Virus record (IMG/VR): IMGVR_UViG_2934390892_000001
Coordinates: 1-64,000 of that record
Origin: a virus
Taxonomy: Duplodnaviria; Caudoviricetes
Length of the DNA stretch: 64,000 nucleotides
Reading direction: 5' to 3' (one strand)
Shown here: piece by piece, positions 10,926 to 23,057 of the stretch
How positions within the stretch are numbered: the first letter of the stretch is position 1
Layout of the letters: the number at the start of each line of letters is the position of its first letter
Position numbers and translations under genes: made by a program
Notes under the pieces: model-generated
What the model saw: the letters and a program-made list of their open reading frames with translations, nothing else
The model's database searches: none
What the model was told of the DNA's origin: nothing

Positions 10926-11420
10926 ATGACGCACGTAGACGACCTGTACGAGCAGGGAGACGACCGAGAGCCAGCCGAGCCCGCGCAGGAACCGCCGCTC
11001 GACCTGGACGCCATCGAGGACTCCATCCGCACCTACTACGCGGGTAGCGATGACGACAGCGCCAAGGCGGCCGAGGACCTGGCGACGGTTATGTCGAGCC
11101 TGGTCGCTGAGCTTCGTGAGGCCCGCCAGCGGATCGCCGAGTTCGAGGCGCTGCCGACCCGCGAGAACTGGACGGTCACCCCTCGCCGGGACGTCACCCC
11201 CGCCCAGCTTGACCCGCTGATGCGGCGACCTGGCAGCGGAGACGGCGGCGAGGAACGGCTGGCAGTTGTGGCGCCAGCGGTCCTCGGTCCACCCGTGGGA
11301 GCCGATCGCCGACAAGTCCCCGTTCTGATCCTCCCGCCGCCACCTCGCCATTCATCGGGGGTCGAGGTGGCGGCGGATACCCGACAGACCAGCAACCAAG
11401 AGAGGAGGAGGTCGAAGTGA
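10926..11420 (+). CDS. Hypothetical protein
   Basis: GAGGAG SD upstream; LDLDAIE motif common in phage proteins. Confidence 0.5.
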   Translation: MTHVDDLYEQGDDREPAEPAQEPPLDLDAIEDSIRTYYAGSDDDSAKAAEDLATVMSSLVAELREARQRIAEFEALPTRENWTVTPRRDVTPAQLDPLMRRPGSGDGGEERLAVVAPAVLGPPVGADRRQVPVLILPPPPRHSSGVEVAADTRQTSNQERRRSK

Positions 11421-12187
11421 GCGAAATCCAGTTGTTCGACAACGGCGAATTCGAACTCCACATCACTCCGGTCGGCGACTCGTTCAAGATTCAGGCTCCC
11501 GGTCTCGCCCGGTCCCTCGCGTTCCACTCGGCCAAGGACATGCTCCGCACGGTCCCCGGCGACGAGAAAGGGTGGGAGACAGCTCCCACCCTTGGTGGCG
11601 AGCAGGAGATGTGGCACGTCACCGAGGCGGGCTTCTACCGGGTGATGGGTCAGCGTCAGGCGTCGCGGATCAAGAACGAGGCAATCCGCAAGCAGGTAAC
11701 CCGCTTCCAGAAGTGGGTGTTCGCCGAAGTGCTCCCGGCGCTACGTCGCGGCGAGTTGGTAGCACAGCAGCGGCCGGCGATCCCCGAGGACTACGCGGCG
11801 GCCCTGCGGCGCGTCGCAGACGAGGTTGAAGCCCGCGCCCTGGTCGAGAAGGAGCGCGACGAGATGCGCCCCCTCGCGGAGGCGTACTCGCAGTTCATGG
11901 AGTCGGACGGCACCTTCGAGTGGGCCGCCGTCGCGCAGATCCTCACCCGAGTGACGGGCGGACTCGGCCGGAACAACCTGCTGGAACTCCTCCGCGACCT
12001 GAAGGTCCTGAAGGACAACAACACGCCCTACCAGGCCAACTACGAGCCGTACTTCCTGCTCGTCCCCGGCGGCCACGGCGTCAAGACGACCCGCGTCACG
12101 CCGCGCGGCCTGGACTGGCTGCGGCAGCGGCTCGTCAAGCACTTCAACCACCAGCCAGGCCTGTTCGCCATCGGGGAGATCGCATGA
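11417..12187 (+). CDS. Antirepressor (Bro-N plus KilAC/ANT domain)
   Basis: TLGGEQEMWHVTEAGFYR...FQKWVFAEVLPALRR; PEDYAAALR; LGRNNLLELLR; TTRVTPRGLDWL. Confidence 0.88.
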   Translation: MSEIQLFDNGEFELHITPVGDSFKIQAPGLARSLAFHSAKDMLRTVPGDEKGWETAPTLGGEQEMWHVTEAGFYRVMGQRQASRIKNEAIRKQVTRFQKWVFAEVLPALRRGELVAQQRPAIPEDYAAALRRVADEVEARALVEKERDEMRPLAEAYSQFMESDGTFEWAAVAQILTRVTGGLGRNNLLELLRDLKVLKDNNTPYQANYEPYFLLVPGGHGVKTTRVTPRGLDWLRQRLVKHFNHQPGLFAIGEIA

Positions 12188-16430: not shown

Positions 16431-16963
16431 TGGCCCCCGATCTCCGCGACTGCTGCCAGCGCTCGCTCCTGGACGGAGAGACGCCAGAGGAGCACTACGA
16501 GCGGTGTGACGCCCGCCGTGAGGCCCCGCGGCCCGGCGCCCTCTCCGCCCCTTGCGCTTGTGGCCACGTCGAGGTCCTCCACGCGATCCGAGGCAACGGC
16601 TCTCGCGGCGCCTGCTCCATCTCGACTGGCGCGAAGGCCGTCCCGTGTGGGTGCAAGTCGTTTGAGCCTGCTCTGGCTGGTCTCTCGCCAGCGCCAGCCG
16701 TACAGGACACCACGGAGGCGTCCGATGCCTCTTGACCTCGCTGACGACCTTGAGCGGATAGCCCGCCACATCCCGCACGTCGAGGCCGCCGCAGCCGACC
16801 TGACCGCTTCACCGTTCGAGCGTGCTGCTGCCGGCGTCGAGCTGGCCGTGTGGCGGATGGCAAAGGAGATCGCCGAACAGGACCGGTCCGCGGCACAGGT
16901 CACCGATCGGCGCCGGACCATTCCGAACGATCTCGAACCCACACGAACGGAGGCGAACCAGTG

Positions 16964-17245
16964 ATGATGCCCAGCTGGACTTGGCAGCGCAGCGCCGCAT
17001 GCCGCGGCGAAGACCTCTACCTGTTCTTCGGGCGGGAGGGAGAGTCGCGGACCCAGCGCGACCAGCGCGAGACGGCGGCGAAGGCGATCTGCGCCCAGTG
17101 CCCCGTCCGCTCCGAGTGCCTCTCGTATGCGCTGTCCACGCCGGAGCGCTACGGATTTTGGGCGGGCCTGGGCGAGGACGAACGCGCCTCTGAGCGTCGC
17201 CGTCGTATGCGCCGCGCCGCTACCGCCGGCGTCTCCGCCGTCTAA
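16964..17245 (+). CDS. whiB: WhiB-family transcription factor
   Basis: WQRSAAC...LFF...AKAICAQCPVRSECLSYAL...GFWAGLGEDER. Confidence 0.93.
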   Translation: MMPSWTWQRSAACRGEDLYLFFGREGESRTQRDQRETAAKAICAQCPVRSECLSYALSTPERYGFWAGLGEDERASERRRRMRRAATAGVSAV

Positions 17246-17265
17246 CAATCCTCAAGGAAACGACC

Positions 17266-17679
17266 ATGAAGCAGAAGAAACCGCAGGAGTACAGCGCGGA
17301 CGAGTTCGACGCCGTGGTGGCGCTCATCGAGGGCGACGCCGACGTACGAACCGACATCGAGGCGATCACCGGCCAGTCCCTGAAGGGCAAGAGCCCGCGG
17401 GAACTGTTCGACCTGTTCCGCGCTCTGGAAGGGGCCGCACAGGCGCAGGCGGTGGTGGTCCGGTACGGGCAGGCGAAGCGGGCGCTACGGCAGACCCGCT
17501 CCGACCTGGCCAGCCCCGCAGAGCTGCCGAAGCCGATCGCCGACTACGTGGCCGACCTCCAGGCGAAGGTCGACGAAGAGAAGCGCCGGCGGCTCCAGGC
17601 TGAAGCCGCCTTGAAGCAGGCAACCCGGCCCGGCTTGGCCGCTGTCCCGTCCACCACTCCCAGGAAGGCGGTGGGCTGA
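17266..17679 (+). CDS. Hypothetical helical protein, directly upstream of the Cas7-like gene
   Basis: AAGGA SD; 2-nt gap to the next gene. Confidence 0.7.
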   Translation: MKQKKPQEYSADEFDAVVALIEGDADVRTDIEAITGQSLKGKSPRELFDLFRALEGAAQAQAVVVRYGQAKRALRQTRSDLASPAELPKPIADYVADLQAKVDEEKRRRLQAEAALKQATRPGLAAVPSTTPRKAVG

Positions 17680-17681
17680 TC

Positions 17682-18419
17682 ATGGGCGCCACCAGCATTT
17701 TCGGTACGACCTCGAACGTCGCCCGCTACCGGGTGCGGTTGCAGGTCCTCGACAAGATCGTGGGCGGGGTGCCGTCCAACAAGTCCGTCATCAAAAGCTG
17801 GCTGAAGACCCGCATGGAACTCGGGGACCGTGACCTTCAGGAGCTGACGCAGAAGACGCTGACCGAACGCTTCACCGACCGGCAGCCCAGCGCGGACGAG
17901 CTCGCCGACGCCTTCCTGGAGTCCGACGCCGCACCGTCCATCAACGGCTTCAAACGCGTGCCCGACACGGGCGAGCTGGCTTACGAGGGACGGTGCATGA
18001 AGGCCGCCATCAAGGAGTGGGCCAACAGCGCCTACCCGGGGACGGACTGGGACGGCAAGACCACGACGACGGCCGACGTCGGCCGGCCGCTACCGAAGGG
18101 GTTCCGCAAGGGCCTCATGAGCACCCTGGCCGAGCGGGTGTTCGTCGACGAGATCTACATCGGGCTCGGCGTCAAAGAGCCCACCGGGGTCGAGGAGCGC
18201 ATCAAGCACGTCATGACCCCGCAAGGCCCGAGGTCCAGCATCAACCGGGTCGAGTACGTCGAACGGCCCGTCATCGAGTTCGAACTGAAGGTCCACGACG
18301 ACTTCCTGACCATGCAGGCATGGGCCCGCATCTGGGAGCGGGGCGAGGACATCGGCATCGGCTCGGACCGCGGCCGAAGCGACGGCAAGTTCGAGCTCCT
18401 CGCGTTCGAGCGGATCTGA
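17682..18419 (+). CDS. Stand-alone Cas7/RAMP-like protein (VIPR-like effector)
   Basis: RAMP-like layout: N-terminal strand YRVRLQVLDKIVGGVP, helix YEGRCMKAAIKE, thumb-like hairpin, IEFELKV strand and C-terminal glycine loop GIGSDRGRSDGKFEL. Confidence 0.7.
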   Translation: MGATSIFGTTSNVARYRVRLQVLDKIVGGVPSNKSVIKSWLKTRMELGDRDLQELTQKTLTERFTDRQPSADELADAFLESDAAPSINGFKRVPDTGELAYEGRCMKAAIKEWANSAYPGTDWDGKTTTTADVGRPLPKGFRKGLMSTLAERVFVDEIYIGLGVKEPTGVEERIKHVMTPQGPRSSINRVEYVERPVIEFELKVHDDFLTMQAWARIWERGEDIGIGSDRGRSDGKFELLAFERI

Positions 18420-18439
18420 GCCGTGGACGCCACCTTCTG

Positions 18440-18880
18440 CGACGCCGTCACGGATACGGCTAGCCCAGCCACTCCGACCAGCCAAGCCCAGCCCCGACTC
18501 GTTCACGCCAACACACCGCGACGTCCCACCACGCTTCAGGCCTTGCCGCTCTCCGCGCCGACATGCCAGACCATTCCTTGTCTCTCCACCTCGACGAGCC
18601 GAGCCTTCAGCACCGTCCACGCGCACGACTGCACTGCCCACATCCGCTACAGCCCCGCACGACCTGCCAAGCCATGCGCCTACGCCTGCCATTGCGACAC
18701 GCCAACCCGACCCGCTACACGACAGACCCCGACGACACATCACACCTCGTCTACTCGGAGCGACATGCCAAGCCGTGCCCATGCCCGCCCGTATCGACCC
18801 CACGTCTTTTCGACCGTGCTGTTCCAGTCTTCACGGGCCAAGCCCTCAACGACATGCCTTACCAACCCCGCTCAAGTCGG
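18440..18880. ncRNA. CGAC-delimited array with 5-nt NN-RCC periodicity (GGY-NN on the minus strand); candidate guide RNA array
   Basis: CGAC at 18440, 18475, 18495, 18519, 18559, 18592, 18626, 18660, 18695, 18730, 18761, 18795, 18811, 18850; example unit CGAC at-gcc ag-acc at-tcc tt-gtc tc-tcc. Confidence 0.65.
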
Positions 18881-18922
18881 AACGGGGGAGGCGTCGTGAT
18901 CTTCGGGGGCGTTGAGGCGCGG

Positions 18923-19252
18923 TCAGGAGTCAGCGGGATCGGCCGAGGTGCGCTTCGGGTGCTCGATCCGGAAGCCGGCGCGCTCAAGGTCGCGAAGACT
19001 GATGCTGCCCGCGGGTCGCGTCTTCCGGGCCGGCGGCGGCTTGATGCCGTCGACAACGTCGGCATCTTCCTGGATGCGCCGGATGTGCTCGGGCTCGCGC
19101 TCGAAGTGACGGGCGATATCAGCTTGCTTAGTTCCGGCCTCGCGGGCTTCGCGGATGGCTCGGCCGAACTCGACCCATGCGCTGTTAACGAGGTCTTCGG
19201 CCAGCTGTTCGGCACGCTTGATCTCCGCGTACGCAGCTTCGAGGGCAGCCAT
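18923..19252 (-). CDS. Small HTH regulator, reverse orientation
   Basis: AIREAREAGTKQADIARHFEREPEHIRRI; GGAGAGG SD upstream. Confidence 0.7.
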   Translation of the reverse strand: MAALEAAYAEIKRAEQLAEDLVNSAWVEFGRAIREAREAGTKQADIARHFEREPEHIRRIQEDADVVDGIKPPPARKTRPAGSISLRDLERAGFRIEHPKRTSADPADS

Positions 19253-19285
19253 CGGGTCGGTCACCTCTCCATCATCACACCACTG

Positions 19286-19362
19286 ATGTGGCCACCTTAG
19301 CATGTGGGCCCCACATGGAAATGTGCCCACACGAAATGTAGGCCCCACATGGCAATGTGGGG
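19286..19362. promoter_or_regulatory. Operator cluster ATGTG-N-CACAT
   Basis: CATGTGGGCCCCACATG (19301-19317), ATGTAGGCCCCACAT (19336-19350) and partial copies, between divergent genes. Confidence 0.65.
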
Positions 19363-19482
19363 TATCGTCGGACTCGAACAAGTGAGTGATCAGGGGGACT
19401 GAAGTGGCGAGACCCCGAAGACCGGCCTTGCTCCCGTAGGCCAAACCCCGAGCAGCACTTAGTACCAAGGGAGAGCGCGCAC

Positions 19483-20016
19483 GTGGCGCTGAATTCGACA
19501 ACAGAGTCCGGGTATGAACTGGTTGCCCGCCTCGCAGCGATGGACCTTCCTGATGAAGGTCCACAGGTAGAAGATGCCCAGGGCCTACTGAGGGCCCTGG
19601 TGATGTTCGGTGACGCTCGGGGCCGGTATTTCGCCAACCCCGCGCTGCTCAGCCGATTGTTCGCGTGGCAGGAAACGCCCGCGGTCCAGGTGGCTGCATG
19701 GCGGGACGAGCTTGTGGCTCAGCGTGAGATCGACGTAGAGCTGATCGGGCGGTGCTGCTACTCGAACAGGCCTGTGCCGATCGTCTCCATCGTCAACCGT
19801 CGCCGCTTCCGGCGGTTCGCAGGGCGCGACCACATCCCGACGGCCATACGAAGGGCGGTCTACAGGCGCGACGGCCATCAGTGCGTCCGCTGCGGAGTCG
19901 ACGCAGACCTGTCCTTGGACCACATCGTCCCGTGGTCTCTGGGGGGACCCGACACCATCGACAACCTGCAGACCCTCTGTCGGCCGTGTAACAGCAGCAA
20001 GGGGGCGCGCGTCTGA
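19483..20016 (+). CDS. HNH endonuclease
   Basis: RDGHQCVRCG...LDHIVPWSLGGPDTIDNLQTLCRPCNSSKG. Confidence 0.9.
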   Translation: MALNSTTESGYELVARLAAMDLPDEGPQVEDAQGLLRALVMFGDARGRYFANPALLSRLFAWQETPAVQVAAWRDELVAQREIDVELIGRCCYSNRPVPIVSIVNRRRFRRFAGRDHIPTAIRRAVYRRDGHQCVRCGVDADLSLDHIVPWSLGGPDTIDNLQTLCRPCNSSKGARV

Positions 20017-21107
20017 TGGCGTGGGTCCGCTATGACGATCAGTTCCACGTCAATCCGAAGGTGACTGCGGTCATCGCGGAAGACGCGGCGGCCTTGGCGC
20101 TCCATGTGCTGGCCAACACGTGGACGAACAGCCAGAAGCGCATGGGGTTCGTTCCGCGGCATCAGCCGGGTGTCCTCGTCTGCGACCGCACGCAGGGGAC
20201 TGCTTGGGCGGAGGTGCTTGTGCGGCACGGCTTGTGGCATGACCGCGATAACGACTGCGCTGCGTGCAGGGAGGAGTACGCCGATCTGCCCGATGACGTG
20301 GACGGGTTCGTCATTCACAACGCGAAGGAATACCGGGCGCCGGCTCGGGAGCGGCTGACTTCGGGAACCGCAGCGGATCTGTCGGAGAAGCGTCGAGAGG
20401 CGGGCAGAAGGGGAGGTCTCGCATCCGCCGCAAGGCGCAATCAGACAAACGAAAGCAAAAGCAAGCAAACCGAAGCAAAGCGCCAAGCAAGTCAAGCAGA
20501 TGAAGCAAAAAATGAGCCGACCGCCTCAACTCGAGCAGCCGTCGCAGCTTCCGGCACAAACCCTCAAGTTCAGGTCGAGGCTGCGATAACGCCACCTGCG
20601 GAAACGCAGCAAGTGGCGCAAGCAAGTCAAGCAAATGGTGTGAGCAAAACCAGCAACTTGCTCCTTGCTGGCGTGAGCCCCGTACCCGGTACTTCTCCTT
20701 ACGGAGAAGTACCACCCGAAACCCTCTTTGCTTCTGACGAAGCAAAGGTTCCGCCTACGGCGGGCACGGCCAAGCCGCGCCGGACCCCGCCGGAGGACGC
20801 ACCTCCCAACGCCGGAGATGTCGTTGCCGCCTGGGTCGAGGGCGCGGAGGCGGTCAGCGGCGAACGCCCCGGAGGGCGCCTCATTGCTCAGGTTGGCAGG
20901 CAGGCCCGCGAACTGCTCGAAGAGGGCAAGGACCCGTCCCGCCTCGTCGAGGCCGCCAAAGCGGCAGGCCGCAAGGGCTTCGCCGACCTGCCTCGAGAAC
21001 TCCTCCGGATGGGCGCTGGCGGGTCCAGCGACAGCGGCAAATATGCACCCGGCTCCGAACCGCACCTCAAGCCGGGAACCACATACGACCCCGAGAAGGT
21101 GATCTGA
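20016..21107 (+). CDS. Replication initiator protein
   Basis: MAWVRYDDQFHVNPKV N-terminus typical of actinophage Rep proteins; internal iteron-like repeats; lies upstream of loader and helicase. Confidence 0.75.
   Translation: MAWVRYDDQFHVNPKVTAVIAEDAAALALHVLANTWTNSQKRMGFVPRHQPGVLVCDRTQGTAWAEVLVRHGLWHDRDNDCAACREEYADLPDDVDGFVIHNAKEYRAPARERLTSGTAADLSEKRREAGRRGGLASAARRNQTNESKSKQTEAKRQASQADEAKNEPTASTRAAVAASGTNPQVQVEAAITPPAETQQVAQASQANGVSKTSNLLLAGVSPVPGTSPYGEVPPETLFASDEAKVPPTAGTAKPRRTPPEDAPPNAGDVVAAWVEGAEAVSGERPGGRLIAQVGRQARELLEEGKDPSRLVEAAKAAGRKGFADLPRELLRMGAGGSSDSGKYAPGSEPHLKPGTTYDPEKVI
20450..20670. repeat. AAGCAA iteron-like repeats, putative replication origin
   Basis: A-rich clusters such as gaaagcaaaagcaagcaaaccgaagcaaag and caagcaagtcaagca x2 inside the rep gene. 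Confidence 0.6.
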
Positions 21108-21108
21108 C

Positions 21109-21699
21109 ATGGGCGAAAGCAGCCCCGAGCCGTACGACGACGACGCAGAACTGCATGCCGAATGGGCCAGGCAGGCCCAGGAGTTCAGGCTCGAGCAGTG
21201 GCGCAAGCGCATCCCCCCGTCGATGCGCACACCCGGCGAACTGGACCCGCGGATCGTCTCGTGGGTGAACGACCTGGTTCGGCGCTCCCCGAACAACTTG
21301 CTGATGGTCGGGCCGGTGGGGGTCGGAAAGACCTGGTCCTGCTGGCACGCCGCCGACGCCGCGATCGCGGCCGGTTGGGACGGCGACCCGACCGTGGTGG
21401 GCGCCTACGAGTGGAAGCTGCTGATCACCCCGCCCGTCAACGAGATGGACGTGCGGGACATCGCCCGGTCGTCGCTGCTGGTCCTCGACGACCCCGGAGC
21501 GATGCGCCTGGGGGCGTGGGAGCTCGAGCACATGTACGGCGTGATCGACTACCGCTGGAATCACCGGCTGCCGACCATCATCACCAGCAACGTCCCCGAC
21601 CTGCGCGCCATGCTCGGCGAGCGCATCGCTTCCCGTCTCGCCGCGAATGTCACGGTCGTCGTGCTTGATGGCCCGGACCGCCGCCGGGAGGGCAAGTGA
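21109..21699 (+). CDS. DnaC/IstB-like helicase loader ATPase
   Basis: GPVGVGKT, LLVLDDPG, IDYRWNHRLPTIITSN, GPDRR. Confidence 0.88.
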   Translation: MGESSPEPYDDDAELHAEWARQAQEFRLEQWRKRIPPSMRTPGELDPRIVSWVNDLVRRSPNNLLMVGPVGVGKTWSCWHAADAAIAAGWDGDPTVVGAYEWKLLITPPVNEMDVRDIARSSLLVLDDPGAMRLGAWELEHMYGVIDYRWNHRLPTIITSNVPDLRAMLGERIASRLAANVTVVVLDGPDRRREGK

Positions 21700-23057
21700 G
21701 CATCGAAGGTGTTGAGGCGGACGGCTGGTGGCCGAGCCCCGCGGTGATCGCAGCCGAGCAGGCCGTGGTCGGTGCGGCGATCCAGAACCGCGGAGTGGCC
21801 GAGAACGCGGCCGACATTGTGCGCCCGCACGACTTCTACAACTCCGCCCACCGCGAAGTCTTCGCCGCGGTCCTGACGCTGGCCGAGGACGGCAACCCCG
21901 TGGACCCGGCCGCGGTGCTCGGCGTGCTGGCCGCAGAGGGCAAGCTCGAGCGTGTTGGGGGCGGGCCCGCGCTGGCGGAACTCATGGAGAACGCCGCAGT
22001 GGGGCCCGCGGTCACCTTCCACGCTCGCATCGTCAAGGCCGATGCGGTTCGCCGGCGCGGACACGAGGCGGGGCAGCGGATCAAGCAGTTGTTCTCCAAC
22101 CACGCCTTTGATGTGGACTCGGATCCCGACCTGGCTCGCAAGCTGCTCGAGGAGGCGCTGGCGGTCGGGGGCGACCGGCCCATGGTTACTGCGGCCGAGC
22201 TGGTCGGCCCCACCATGGATGACCTCGCCAACCGTGAGGCGCAGATGGTCGGCGTCCCGACCGGATACAAGGACCTCGACGACATCCTGCCCGGTCTGCG
22301 TCCTGGTCAGCTTGTGGTGGTGGGGGCGAGGCCGGGCATCGGCAAGACGACGATCGGGCTCGACATCGCCCGCCACGTCGCGGTCCGCAGGCAGTACCCG
22401 GCCCTGTTCGTGAGTCTCGAGATGTCGCACAGCGAAGTCATGCACCGGCTCATCGCCGCGGAGTCCCGCGTGGACTTGCACCGCATGCAGAACCGCGACC
22501 TGAACGACGACGACTGGATGCGCATGGCCGAGGGCGCGCCCCGGATCGCCGAATCGCGCCTCGTGATCGACGACACTCCCGCGGCGGGCCTGGCGCACAT
22601 CCGCTCGAGGTTGCGCGATATGGCCAGGACCAACCCGGCCCGCCTCGTGGTCGTGGACTACCTGCAGCTCATGTCTGGCGGCAGGGCGGAGAACCGGCAG
22701 CAGCAAGTCGCCGACCTGTCTCGCGGATTGAAGCTCATCGCTCGAGAGCACGAGGTGCCCCTGATGGTGCTCGCCCAGCTGAACCGAGGGTCTGAGCACC
22801 GGCAGGACAAGCGCCCCCAGATGTCCGACCTTCGCGAGTCGGGCGCGGTCGAGCAAGACGCGGACGTGGTCCTGCTGCTCCACCGCGAGGCCGCCGCAGA
22901 CCCGGAATCCAAGCACGCGGGCACGGTCGAGGTGATCGTCGCCAAGCAGCGCCAGGGCCGCACTGGCTCGGTGACGCTCGGCTGGCAAGGCCACTACGGG
23001 CGGTGCGTCAACCACGTCCAGCCCTGGAGTCCTACCGCGCAATTGGAGAGGCGATGA
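21696..23057 (+). CDS. dnaB: Replicative DNA helicase
   Basis: AEQAVVGA, GARPGIGKT, SLEMS, VVVDYLQL, AQLNR, DLRESGAVEQDAD, KQRQG. Confidence 0.96.
   Translation: MSIEGVEADGWWPSPAVIAAEQAVVGAAIQNRGVAENAADIVRPHDFYNSAHREVFAAVLTLAEDGNPVDPAAVLGVLAAEGKLERVGGGPALAELMENAAVGPAVTFHARIVKADAVRRRGHEAGQRIKQLFSNHAFDVDSDPDLARKLLEEALAVGGDRPMVTAAELVGPTMDDLANREAQMVGVPTGYKDLDDILPGLRPGQLVVVGARPGIGKTTIGLDIARHVAVRRQYPALFVSLEMSHSEVMHRLIAAESRVDLHRMQNRDLNDDDWMRMAEGAPRIAESRLVIDDTPAAGLAHIRSRLRDMARTNPARLVVVDYLQLMSGGRAENRQQQVADLSRGLKLIAREHEVPLMVLAQLNRGSEHRQDKRPQMSDLRESGAVEQDADVVLLLHREAAADPESKHAGTVEVIVAKQRQGRTGSVTLGWQGHYGRCVNHVQPWSPTAQLERR

What the first reader, a model, noticed from the sequence alone, without database searches (positions are those of the whole stretch)
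18440..18880. CGAC-punctuated array with 5-nt periodicity directly after the Cas7-like gene
Seen: C-rich, G-poor tract with CGAC recurring mostly every 31-40 nt (mode 34-35). Each is followed by up to ~6 pentamers of variable NN plus a semi-conserved RCC-like triplet, e.g. CGAC at-gcc ag-acc at-tcc tt-gtc tc-tcc; CGAC at-gcc aa-gcc gt-gcc; CGAC at-gcc tt-acc aa-ccc; CGAC ca-gcc aa-gcc ca-gcc. The pattern is degenerate in several units. The minus strand reads (GGY-NN)n-GTCG. Inference: one protein subunit per pentamer, with the NN dinucleotides forming a gapped targeting code; each CGAC unit is one guide.
Basis: partly seen in the sequence, partly recalled or inferred. Interest (0 to 1): 0.88.

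Follow-up and report, generated by a model that had tools for sequence, protein, structure and literature searches.

The report
Prophage VIPR-type guide-RNA array
The odd C-rich tract is a real five-base-periodic repeat array that always follows a Cas7-like gene in prophages of soil actinobacteria, and it matches the newly described phage "VIPR" RNA-guided silencing systems, so it is a new member of a very recently described kind.

Summary
Window 18440-18880 is non-coding and is the most C-skewed, most 5-nt-periodic stretch of the 87-kb provirus (lag-5 z 5.35; CGAC 17 vs 7.3 expected). Family-wide, the grammar is [GAC + 5-7 pentamers NN-R-CC]; on the minus strand this reads (GGY-NN)n-GTC.

The gene just upstream (17682-18419, 245 aa, no Pfam, PHROG or NCBIfam family) folds as a Cas7/Csm3-type RAMP (VIA-align Z 11.2; the top 23 rows are all CRISPR RAMPs). 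All 29 related loci examined carry the same array directly after the gene, always C-rich on the gene's strand.

This matches VIPR systems (bioRxiv 2026 preprints): a minimal RAMP binds one protomer per GGY/NN repeat, and the NN bases read DNA through a gapped code.

Differences from the characterised SUSP1 system:
- The GGY strand is antisense to the gene.
- Units are short (mode 6 repeats) and separated by a 3-nt break.
- There is one conserved hairpin per array instead of a tail per RNA.
- No sequence homology to SUSP1 Vipr was detected.

Expression, the transcribed strand and the targets remain untested. Local gapped target searches found nothing. Verdict: new member of a known kind, possibly a distinct variant.

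The parts
17266..17679 (+). Conserved 137-aa gene directly upstream of the RAMP gene. Its stop lies 3 nt before the RAMP start. It is a candidate accessory ('vap'-like) gene of unknown function.
   Evidence: A homologue sits immediately upstream of the RAMP gene in 19 of 24 loci. The AF2 model is all-helical with long helices (pLDDT 79). There is no Pfam, PHROG or NCBIfam hit, no ESM Atlas lead and no Foldseek match at E<=0.001.
17682..18419 (+). Vipr-like RAMP (Cas7/Csm3 fold), 245 aa. In the model, beta1 lies at 13-22, the helical insertion at 34-80, a long beta-hairpin (thumb-like) at 169-194, and the C-terminal glycine-rich loop at about 224-237.
   Evidence: AF2 gives pLDDT 87.2 and pTM 0.78. 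The top Foldseek pdb hits are all Cas7-family: type VII Cas7 8yhe_F E 2e-7, then Csm3 and Cas7-11, with TM 0.39-0.51. In VIA-align wide, the top 23 rows are all CRISPR RAMPs, led by Csm3 9g9a_D at Z 11.2, rmsd 4.1, 151 aligned. There are 390 homologues at E<=1e-3, and every name given by a source in the 120 listed rows is 'hypothetical' or 'uncharacterized', mostly from Streptosporangiaceae.
18437..18465 (.). Conserved stem-loop at the gene-proximal end of the array. The stem arms are 18444-18448 and 18456-18460, with a 7-nt loop. CGAC precedes it and TAGCC follows it on the + strand.
   Evidence: A regex finds it in 28 of 30 loci. The fifth stem pair is T-A in 18 loci, C-G in 9 and G-C in 1, with no mispairs. 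The sequences are listed. It occurs once per array, and twice in the double array of L039.
18440..18880 (-). Pentamer-repeat array of about 16 CGAC-headed units. On the + strand each unit is GAC + (NN-R-CC)n. On the - strand it reads (GGY-NN)n-GTC, which is the canonical vrRNA motif. The - strand assignment is an inference, not shown.
   Evidence: This is the only region of the 87-kb provirus that passes lag-5 >=0.37 together with skew <=-0.2.
18923..19255 (-). 110-aa gene convergent on the RAMP gene, probably a small helix-turn-helix protein. Its stop lies about 45 nt from the distal end of the array, so its promoter could drive a minus-strand array transcript in this window.
   Evidence: The ORF and its RBS-like GGAGAGG 11 nt before the ATG are read. 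The ESM Atlas gives HTH_23-type clusters at 0.85-0.89, which is a lead only. There is no Pfam or PHROG hit.

Best explanation
This is a VIPR-type (Viral Interference Programmable Repeat) locus carried by an actinobacterial prophage.

Components:
- The 245-aa protein is a minimal Cas7-like RAMP (Vipr-like).
- The adjacent 440-nt tract is its guide-RNA array.

Proposed mechanism, by analogy with the characterised SUSP1 system:
- The array is transcribed, most likely from the minus strand, so that the RNA reads 5'-(GGY-NN)n-GUC-3'.
- RAMP protomers polymerise along the RNA, one per pentamer. They clamp the GGY bases and expose the NN dinucleotides.
- The exposed NN bases pair with double-stranded DNA in a gapped register (NN, skip one base).
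- Binding silences genes of competing phages or prophages.

In this family each run of about 6 repeats between GUC breaks is probably one short guide. The single conserved hairpin at the gene-proximal end is then the 3' cap or terminator-side element of the array.

Shown here: the periodic grammar, the RAMP fold, strict gene-array linkage and orientation in 30 of 30 loci, covariation in the hairpin, and the prophage context.

Inferred: transcription, the strand, processing at GUC, one unit equals one guide, the 1-nt-skip rule, and the biological targets.
For: 1. Fold. The protein has a RAMP/Cas7 fold in a confident model. It has a C-terminal glycine-rich loop, a long beta-hairpin and a helical insertion. 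These are the domains listed for Vipr in 10.64898/2026.04.26.720927 (section read).

2. Linkage. The array directly follows the gene in the window and in all related loci examined: 8 of 8 IMG/VR loci, 15 of 15 genome loci, Microcystis phage Mae-JY09 and 5 of 5 further IMG/VR loci. It is always C-rich on the gene's strand. At least three of these loci look like the same element held in two collections (L002/L023, L015/L029, L019/L036).

3. Motif. On the minus strand the repeat is GG-Y-NN, where Y is the complement of the R position. G+A is 0.61 at that position, against about 0.4 for the tract as a whole (0.38 for its core). This is the canonical vrRNA motif in both sequence and polarity. I confirmed the motif in phiSUSP1 itself.

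4. Polarity. Read on the minus strand, the one conserved structured element lies 3' of the repeats, as the vrRNA tail does (paper). In 8 loci a GC-rich hairpin sits between that element and the RAMP gene's stop. In three of them the gap is only 4-6 nt, which leaves no room for a plus-strand promoter.

5. Locus type. It is a minimal locus with one conserved partner gene in 19 of 24 loci. No cas family appears among the 20 window genes scanned with Pfam. The setting is proviral: integrase, portal and capsid are present and the record is classed as a provirus. All of this matches the description of VIPR loci.

6. Unit length. The modal unit of 6 repeats equals the six-subunit turn of the Vipr-vrRNA filament reported. 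This may be coincidence.
Against: 1. No homology detected. Profile-profile comparison with a 24-sequence alignment of the SUSP1 Vipr family gives Prob 1.3%, E 0.04. Only the C-terminal half, including the G-loop, lines up. Membership therefore rests on fold and locus grammar.

2. Orientation differs from the reference. In phiSUSP1 the GGY strand is the strand of the vipr gene. Here it is antisense in every locus.

3. Context favouring plus-strand transcription:
- In at least 7 loci a plus-strand gene with a clear RBS starts 30-60 nt after the array.
- No TANNNT -10 motif occurs on the minus strand within 120 nt upstream of the array in any of 28 loci.
- In L002/L023 a hairpin followed by a T-run on the minus strand lies between the downstream minus gene and the array.
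- All 17 annotated genes next to the Mae-JY09 array are on the plus strand.
- Taken together, plus-strand (C-rich) transcription by read-through is at least as easy to explain from context.

4. Different unit architecture. Units have 5-7 repeats and no roughly 40-nt tail, against 9-16 repeats plus a tail in the published systems.

5. NN is not hypervariable. In 48 matched segments between related arrays, substitution rates per pentamer position are 0.072, 0.122, 0.133, 0.098 and 0.003. NN does not vary more than R and the first C (Fisher p 0.18). Only one base per pentamer is strictly fixed.

6. No targets found. Gapped target searches gave no excess under the 1-nt-skip rule. Power was low because the database was at most 514 kb and the guides specify only 12-14 bases.

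7. The window's own array is degenerate, with many phase slips.
Confidence: 0.72

Rival explanations
1. The system is still VIPR-type, but the functional RNA is the plus-strand, C-rich transcript, 5'-hairpin-(GAC-(NN-R-CC)n)-3'. It is co-transcribed with the vap-like and RAMP genes. This divergent RAMP would then read C(C) rather than GG, with a 5' instead of a 3' structured cap. That would be a new repeat code and polarity.
For: - The array is on the gene's sense strand in 30 of 30 loci.
- Plus-strand genes with an RBS follow within 30-60 nt in at least 7 loci.
- No minus-strand -10 motif lies upstream in 28 loci.
- All 17 annotated genes next to the Mae-JY09 array are on the plus strand.
- The G-loop residues that read G1 and G2 in SUSP1 Vipr (D177, W178) are not matched in the hhalign alignment. 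Under that weak alignment they fall opposite S228 and D229 (my own residue mapping).
- A second preprint reports 21 clusters of VIPR-like arrays with non-GGY repeats (10.64898/2026.10.21.760802, passages).
Against: - The motif is the exact reverse complement of the canonical GGY-NN, including the purine preference at R. That would be an unexplained coincidence if the C strand were the one read.
- The structured element would sit 5' of the repeats, opposite to the known vrRNAs.
- GC-rich terminator-like hairpins lie between the RAMP gene's stop and the array in 8 loci. In three of them there is no room for a promoter.
Confidence: 0.2
2. The tract works as DNA or as a transcription signal and is not a guide array. 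Candidates are a Rho-utilisation (rut) zone or Rho sponge at the end of the early operon, or an R-loop-prone or iteron-type replication origin next to the replication module (initiator-like, DnaC-like and DnaB genes at 20016-23057).
For: - The tract is strongly C-rich and G-poor, about 440 nt long and largely unstructured, and it lies downstream of a plus-strand gene train. That is the composition expected of rut sites (my general knowledge).
- It is adjacent to a replication module.
Against: - Neither model explains an exact 5-nt register with 3-nt phase breaks.
- Neither explains the obligate pairing with a Cas7-fold gene across hosts from Streptosporangiaceae to an Acidimicrobiales MAG, in varying gene contexts.
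- The replication genes are not conserved neighbours. DnaB-like genes occur in 8 of 24 loci and DnaC-like genes in 7 of 24.
Confidence: 0.04
3. The tract is translated as a proline/threonine/alanine-rich disordered protein. ORF 18423-18899 is open for 158 codons, and a start codon with an RBS-like purine run precedes the hairpin in many loci.
For: - The frame is open across the tract.
- RBS-like sequences with ATG, GTG or TTG lie 10-25 nt before the conserved CGAC-hairpin in many loci.
Against: - There is no GC3 signal in any frame, although the flanking genes reach 0.9.
- Two of the three plus-strand frames are open simply because stop codons are rare in C-rich DNA.
- The start codon's frame relative to the conserved element differs between loci.
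- A 5-nt period with 28/33/38-nt units cannot keep a reading frame.
Confidence: 0.01

Closest known systems
VIPR systems (Vipr RAMP + vrRNA), type II of Escherichia phage SUSP1 and a Pseudomonas fulva prophage. Sources: bioRxiv 10.64898/2026.04.26.720920 (Results, Discussion, methods sections 18 and 20, and legends read) and 10.64898/2026.04.26.720927 (abstract and sections 5-6 read).
   Same: - A small stand-alone RAMP with a G-loop, thumb-like hairpin and helical insertion.
- A two-gene locus without cas genes or a CRISPR array.
- A phage or prophage host.
- A flanking non-coding array of tandem pentamers whose G-strand reads GGY-NN.
- A conserved structured element 3' of the repeats on that strand.
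   Different: - No detectable sequence homology to the SUSP1 Vipr family.
- The protein is 245 aa against 195 aa.
- The candidate accessory gene lies upstream rather than downstream.
- The GGY strand is antisense to the gene, whereas in phiSUSP1 it is the gene's strand.
- Runs have 5-7 repeats against 9-16. They are separated by a 3-nt GTC break, not by a roughly 40-nt tail and a new promoter.
- There is one hairpin per array.
- Only the first G of GGY is strictly fixed.
- I could not see the preprint's figures and tables for types I and III-VII, or for 'staggered arrays' whose vrRNAs abut each other. This family may already be among its 667 systems.
Cas7 backbone subunits of class 1 CRISPR-Cas (Csm3/Cmr4 of type III, type VII Cas7, Csf2 of type IV, Cas7-11)
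   Same: These are the best structural matches. They share the RRM core with a glycine-rich loop and thumb, and they form a filament along a guide RNA with periodic base flipping.
   Different: - There is no CRISPR repeat-spacer array, and no Cas5, Cas6, Cas10, Cas8, Cas11 or Cas1-2 family among the 20 window genes scanned with Pfam.
- The period is 5 nt with a conserved motif in every repeat. CRISPR backbones use a 6-nt period over an arbitrary spacer.
- Sequence identity to the matched chains is 4-19%.
TRAP (trp RNA-binding attenuation protein) and its (G/U)AG-NN repeat sites. This comparison is recalled, not tested.
   Same: A protein oligomer reads a conserved triplet spaced by two variable bases. 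This gives a 5-nt period on an unstructured RNA.
   Different: The protein fold is unrelated. TRAP sites are single 11-repeat sites in leader RNAs, not long arrays. The spacers carry no information.

Membership tests
VIPR (Vipr + vrRNA) | Effector is a minimal RAMP with an RRM core, glycine-rich loop and thumb | tested here: met
   The AF2 model has pLDDT 87. All top Foldseek hits and the top 23 VIA rows are Cas7-type RAMPs, with Z up to 11.2.
VIPR (Vipr + vrRNA) | Sequence homology to published Vipr proteins (SUSP1 / X1U2U4 lineage) | tested here: inconclusive
   hhalign of A1 against the single SUSP1 sequence found no significant match (Prob 0.14%, E 0.42, 20 columns). Against a 24-sequence SUSP1-family profile it gave Prob 1.3%, E 0.04, with a sensible alignment of the C-terminal half and the G-loop. 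The preprint itself says RAMPs share little sequence similarity.
VIPR (Vipr + vrRNA) | Flanking intergenic tandem pentamers GGY/NN (YNNGG), at least 4 repeats | tested here: met
   On the minus strand CC, R and NN positions are phased over 5-7 repeats per unit. Lag-5 z is 5.35. The same holds in 29 of 29 related loci.
VIPR (Vipr + vrRNA) | vrRNA architecture: 9-16 repeats followed by a conserved structured 3' tail on each RNA (type II) | tested here: not met
   Runs have a mode of 6 repeats, a 3-nt GTC break and no per-unit tail. There is one hairpin per array. The preprint allows other architectures (staggered arrays, single vrRNA, NNNGG and others), so this feature defines type II, not VIPR as a whole.
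VIPR (Vipr + vrRNA) | Minimal locus with an accessory vap gene, no CRISPR array and no cas genes, in a phage or provirus | tested here: met
   A conserved 137-aa partner gene is present in 19 of 24 loci. No cas family appears among the 20 window genes scanned with Pfam. No Rfam family is found. The record is a provirus with integrase, portal and capsid. No DNA-binding domain could be recognised in the partner gene.
VIPR (Vipr + vrRNA) | Array is expressed as small RNAs that bind the RAMP | not testable with these tools
VIPR (Vipr + vrRNA) | NN dinucleotides match natural DNA targets under the 1-nt-skip rule | tested here: inconclusive
   No excess appeared over other skip lengths or shuffled guides in 329 kb or 514 kb of related prophage DNA. 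With skip 1, perfect hits were 1 against 1 and then 6 against 5.7. Two-unit guides gave nothing either. Power was low and no large collection was searched.
CRISPR-Cas class 1 | CRISPR repeat-spacer array and multi-subunit cas operon | tested here: not met
   There is no repeat-spacer periodicity; the unit is 28-38 nt with only CGAC shared. No cas family appears among the neighbours scanned with Pfam or PHROG.

The most novel reading that the evidence does not exclude
This Streptosporangiaceae-prophage clade is a distinct VIPR type that the preprints have not characterised. Its array is permanently inverted relative to the RAMP gene. It is built of one-filament-turn mini-guides (about 6 repeats, 12 specified bases) delimited by GUC. 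Only one base per pentamer is strictly read.

More radically, the RNA may be the C-rich sense strand. [quoted passage not shown]
Probability: 0.3. Interest if true: 0.7.

Novelty: new member of a known kind. Interest (0 to 1): 0.5.

Why it matters
VIPR is a months-old class of RNA-guided DNA-binding systems, known only from preprints. So far it has been characterised in one clade, from E. coli and Pseudomonas phages.

This locus gives a well-delimited family in high-GC actinobacterial prophages:
- 390 homologues of the RAMP gene.
- 30 of 30 examined loci carry the array.

The family has a simpler, tail-less array grammar, an orientation opposite to the reference system, and a different pattern of constrained bases. 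It therefore offers a natural experiment on three questions:
- How few repeats make a working guide.
- How vrRNAs are delimited without tails or ribozymes.
- Which repeat bases the RAMP really needs.

It could also supply a compact programmable repressor for Streptomyces-like hosts. If the sense strand turns out to be the RNA, it would show that the repeat code itself can change.

Tried and rejected
**Ideas held before the literature hit, then dropped**
- TRAP-like ring binding, Rho rut site or sponge, two-tier G-quadruplex or R-loop origin, iterons or a centromere, and a primase-site array (GTC). None explains the pairing with a Cas7-fold gene, and none fits the 5-nt register with 3-nt breaks.
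- Coding region. Rejected because no frame has a GC3 signal and the frames are not conserved.

**Searches that gave nothing**
- Rfam at gathering threshold over the window, and at E<=1 over 18300-19000.
- tRNA/tmRNA scan.
- Sigma-70 promoter and intrinsic-terminator consensus scans of 17200-19600.
- blastn of 17600-19400 against 50,697 phage records.
- Pfam, PHROGs and NCBIfam for the RAMP and the 137-aa protein.
- ESM Atlas and Foldseek for the 137-aa protein.
- The search for related loci with the window's DnaB.

**Results not counted as evidence either way**
- Sequencing runs: no RNA holder is listed.
- Gapped target tests gave no excess for any skip length. The tests used single runs of 6-12 or 6-14 pentamers at skips 0-3, and adjacent run pairs at gaps 0-5. 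They ran against 329 kb and then 514 kb of held prophage DNA with the arrays masked.
- Extra periodic tracts in L022 (2801-3200) and L018 (5101-5450) are false positives. The first is a coding 15-nt repeat and the second is ordinary sequence.
- An automated call of the first gene after each array was too noisy to use; it mis-called the window itself.

- Supplementary tables and figures of the VIPR preprints could not be seen. They may show that this family is already typed.
- My claim that it is not described in the text rests on two checks. Term searches for 'Actino' and 'Streptom' in 10.64898/2026.04.26.720920 and for 'Actino' in 10.64898/2026.10.15.759431 gave 0 occurrences.
Full report
**1. 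The observation**

Window 18440-18880 lies between two convergent genes. One is a plus-strand gene ending at 18419. The other is a minus-strand gene whose stop is at 18923.

The tract is C-rich and G-poor. Base counts over 18420-18900 are C 209, G 106, A 94, T 72, and GC skew is -0.28 to -0.39. No frame shows the third-position GC signal that the flanking genes show, about 0.9.

Statistics for 18440-18880:
- Lag-5 autocorrelation is 0.415, against 0.303 +/- 0.021 in dinucleotide-preserving shuffles (z 5.35; 0 of 2000 reach it).
- CGAC occurs 17 times against 7.3 +/- 2.0 (0 of 2000).
- None of 1733 equal-sized windows elsewhere in the 87-kb provirus reaches either its lag-5 value or its skew.

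A base-level period of about 34 nt is not significant in this window.

**2. Anatomy from relatives**

The upstream protein retrieved related loci from four sources:
- 8 IMG/VR loci.
- 15 loci from species-representative genomes: Nonomuraea, Streptosporangium, Sphaerisporangium, Actinomadura, Thermoactinospora, Spongiactinospora, an unnamed MAG and an Acidimicrobiales MAG.
- One cultured phage record, Microcystis phage Mae-JY09.
- 5 further IMG/VR loci.

Every locus has a C-skewed, 5-nt-periodic tract of 300 to more than 3000 nt. It starts 0-300 nt after the gene, on the gene's strand. At least three pairs look like one element held twice (L002/L023, L015/L029, L019/L036).

The unit grammar:
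- Aligned on CGAC, CC falls every 5 nt on both sides, but the downstream register is shifted by 3 nt. The unit is therefore GAC + (NN-R-CC)n.
- An HMM parse gave 252 runs bounded by GAC on both sides. Of these, 41, 59 and 32 have 5, 6 and 7 pentamers.

The conserved hairpin:
- A stem-loop sits once per array at the gene-proximal end (window 18437-18465).
- It is found in 28 of 30 loci. Its fifth pair covaries: T-A in 18, C-G in 9, G-C in 1.

How arrays evolve:
- Arrays of close relatives share some units and differ by whole-unit replacement and point changes.
- In 48 matched segments, per-position substitution rates are 0.072, 0.122, 0.133, 0.098 and 0.003. Only the last C of each pentamer is strictly fixed.

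**3. The gene**

The 245-aa protein has no Pfam, PHROG or NCBIfam family. It has 390 homologues, and every name given by a source among the 120 listed rows is 'hypothetical' or 'uncharacterized'.

An AF2 model from a 33-sequence alignment is confident (pLDDT 87, pTM 0.78).
- The top Foldseek hits against the PDB are all Cas7-family subunits: type VII Cas7, Csm3 and Cas7-11. E-values go down to 2e-7, with modest TM scores of 0.39-0.51.
- An independent all-against-representatives alignment puts CRISPR RAMPs in the top 23 rows, led by Csm3 at Z 11.2.

The model has a helical insertion (34-80), a long beta-hairpin (169-194) and an invariant C-terminal glycine-rich loop.

A 137-aa all-helical protein is encoded immediately upstream in 19 of 24 loci. 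I could assign it no fold or family.

**4. What it is**

A full-text search found a bioRxiv preprint dated June 2026, 10.64898/2026.04.26.720920. I read its Results, Discussion, two methods sections and the legends. It describes VIPR systems as follows:
- Phage-encoded minimal RAMPs (Vipr) with an accessory gene.
- vrRNAs made of 9-16 GGY/NN pentamers followed by a structured 3' tail.
- The NN bases pair with dsDNA under a '1-nt skip' rule and repress competing phages.

A companion structural preprint, 10.64898/2026.04.26.720927 (abstract and sections 5-6 read), adds further detail:
- One protomer binds each repeat.
- The binary filament has six subunits per turn.
- G1 is read by H17 and D177, G2 by R138 and W178, and Y3 sits in a pocket that excludes purines.

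Two further preprints mention VIPR. One reports 99 period-5 clusters, 21 of them with non-GGY repeats (passages read).

The present locus matches the defining grammar. It has a RAMP fold, a minimal locus and a provirus setting. On the minus strand its repeats read GG-Y-NN, with pyrimidine at 0.61 at the Y position, against about 0.4 purine on the plus strand of the tract (0.38 for its core; position frequencies).

**5. How it differs, and the strand problem**

I located the reference locus in phiSUSP1. There the GGY strand is the strand of the vipr gene. Here it is antisense in all 30 loci.

Arguments for a minus-strand RNA:
- The exact canonical motif and its polarity.
- The conserved hairpin then lies 3' of the repeats.
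- GC-rich hairpins lie between the RAMP gene's stop and the array in 8 loci. In three of them the gap of 4-6 nt is too small for a plus-strand promoter.
- In the window, a minus-strand HTH-like gene ends about 45 nt from the array. Its promoter region carries palindromic operator-like repeats.

Arguments for a plus-strand RNA:
- Plus-strand genes with an RBS start 30-60 nt beyond the array in at least 7 loci.
- A minus-strand hairpin-plus-T terminator stands in front of the array in L002/L023.
- No TANNNT lies within 120 nt upstream on the minus strand in 28 loci.
- All 17 annotated genes next to the Mae-JY09 array are on the plus strand.

I put the minus strand at roughly 3 to 1 within the VIPR reading.

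Other differences from the reference:
- Short runs separated by a 3-nt GTC break, with no per-RNA tail.
- A larger protein.
- An upstream rather than downstream partner gene.
- No detectable sequence homology to a 24-member SUSP1-family profile (Prob 1.3%, E 0.04), although the C-terminal halves and G-loops align.

**6. Tests of function**

No RNA run holds the locus.

I built NN-skip patterns in scripts from all parsed runs. I searched 329 kb and then 514 kb of held related prophage DNA, with the arrays masked. Perfect and one-mismatch hits under the 1-nt-skip rule did not exceed those under skips 0, 2 or 3, or with shuffled NN order. Guides spanning two units gave nothing.

Power is low, because each guide specifies only 12-14 bases and the database is small. 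I did not type gapped patterns into the collection scanners, so natural targets remain unknown.

**7. Verdict**

- The Cas7-like label is right.
- I file it as a new member of the VIPR kind, with a fair chance (about 0.3) that it represents a distinct type.
They may already list this family.

Noticed in passing
window 19283-19362: A cluster of palindromic, operator-like repeats lies between the minus-strand HTH-like gene (18923-19255) and the plus-strand HNH gene (19483-20016). There are two 24-nt direct copies 34 nt apart and four inverted-repeat pairs. It is probably a divergent promoter/operator of the prophage switch.
   Followed up: partly
L013 6897-6946: One array unit is a pure run of ten identical AAGCC pentamers. 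This looks like a microsatellite-type expansion inside a guide array.
   Followed up: no
L039 (=L009) about 1976-5725: This metagenomic phage contig has a giant array of about 3.7 kb, with a second copy of the conserved hairpin element at 3890-3911. The layout suggests two arrays in tandem.
   Followed up: partly
L026 (Microcystis phage Mae-JY09, PP395641.1) 6001-7200: A record named as a Microcystis phage carries a 34%-identical RAMP homologue and a high-GC, C-rich pentamer array at the extreme right end of its genome. Such high GC looks unusual to me for a phage of that host.
   Followed up: partly
several loci, 10-25 nt upstream of the conserved hairpin (for example window 18423; L004, L005, L006, L011, L013): A purine-rich RBS-like run plus ATG, GTG or TTG recurs just before the CGAC-hairpin, but in different frames relative to it. 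In L004, L005, L006, L008 and L011 a conserved ACTGTACC-like motif lies between the post-gene hairpin and this start. Both are unexplained.
   Followed up: no
28 loci, 120 nt beyond the distal end of each array: There is not a single TANNNT on the minus strand in 3360 nt, where I roughly estimated about 6 by chance (the expectation is my own rough arithmetic).
   Followed up: no
L022 2880-3150: A coding 15-nt tandem repeat mimics the periodicity filter on the opposite strand. It is a false positive for array detection.
   Followed up: yes
proteins P0175, P0180, P0205: The SUSP1-type (type II) Vipr family itself has members at 40-42% identity named from Gordonia, Rhodococcus and Streptomyces. 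Actinobacteria therefore carry at least two very different Vipr lineages.
   Followed up: no
window 1-1554 (-), 11417-12187 (+), 16850-17245 (+): Prophage context genes: a weak tyrosine-integrase match at the left edge, a Bro-N/KilAC antirepressor, and a WhiB-like regulator two genes upstream of the RAMP gene.
   Followed up: partly
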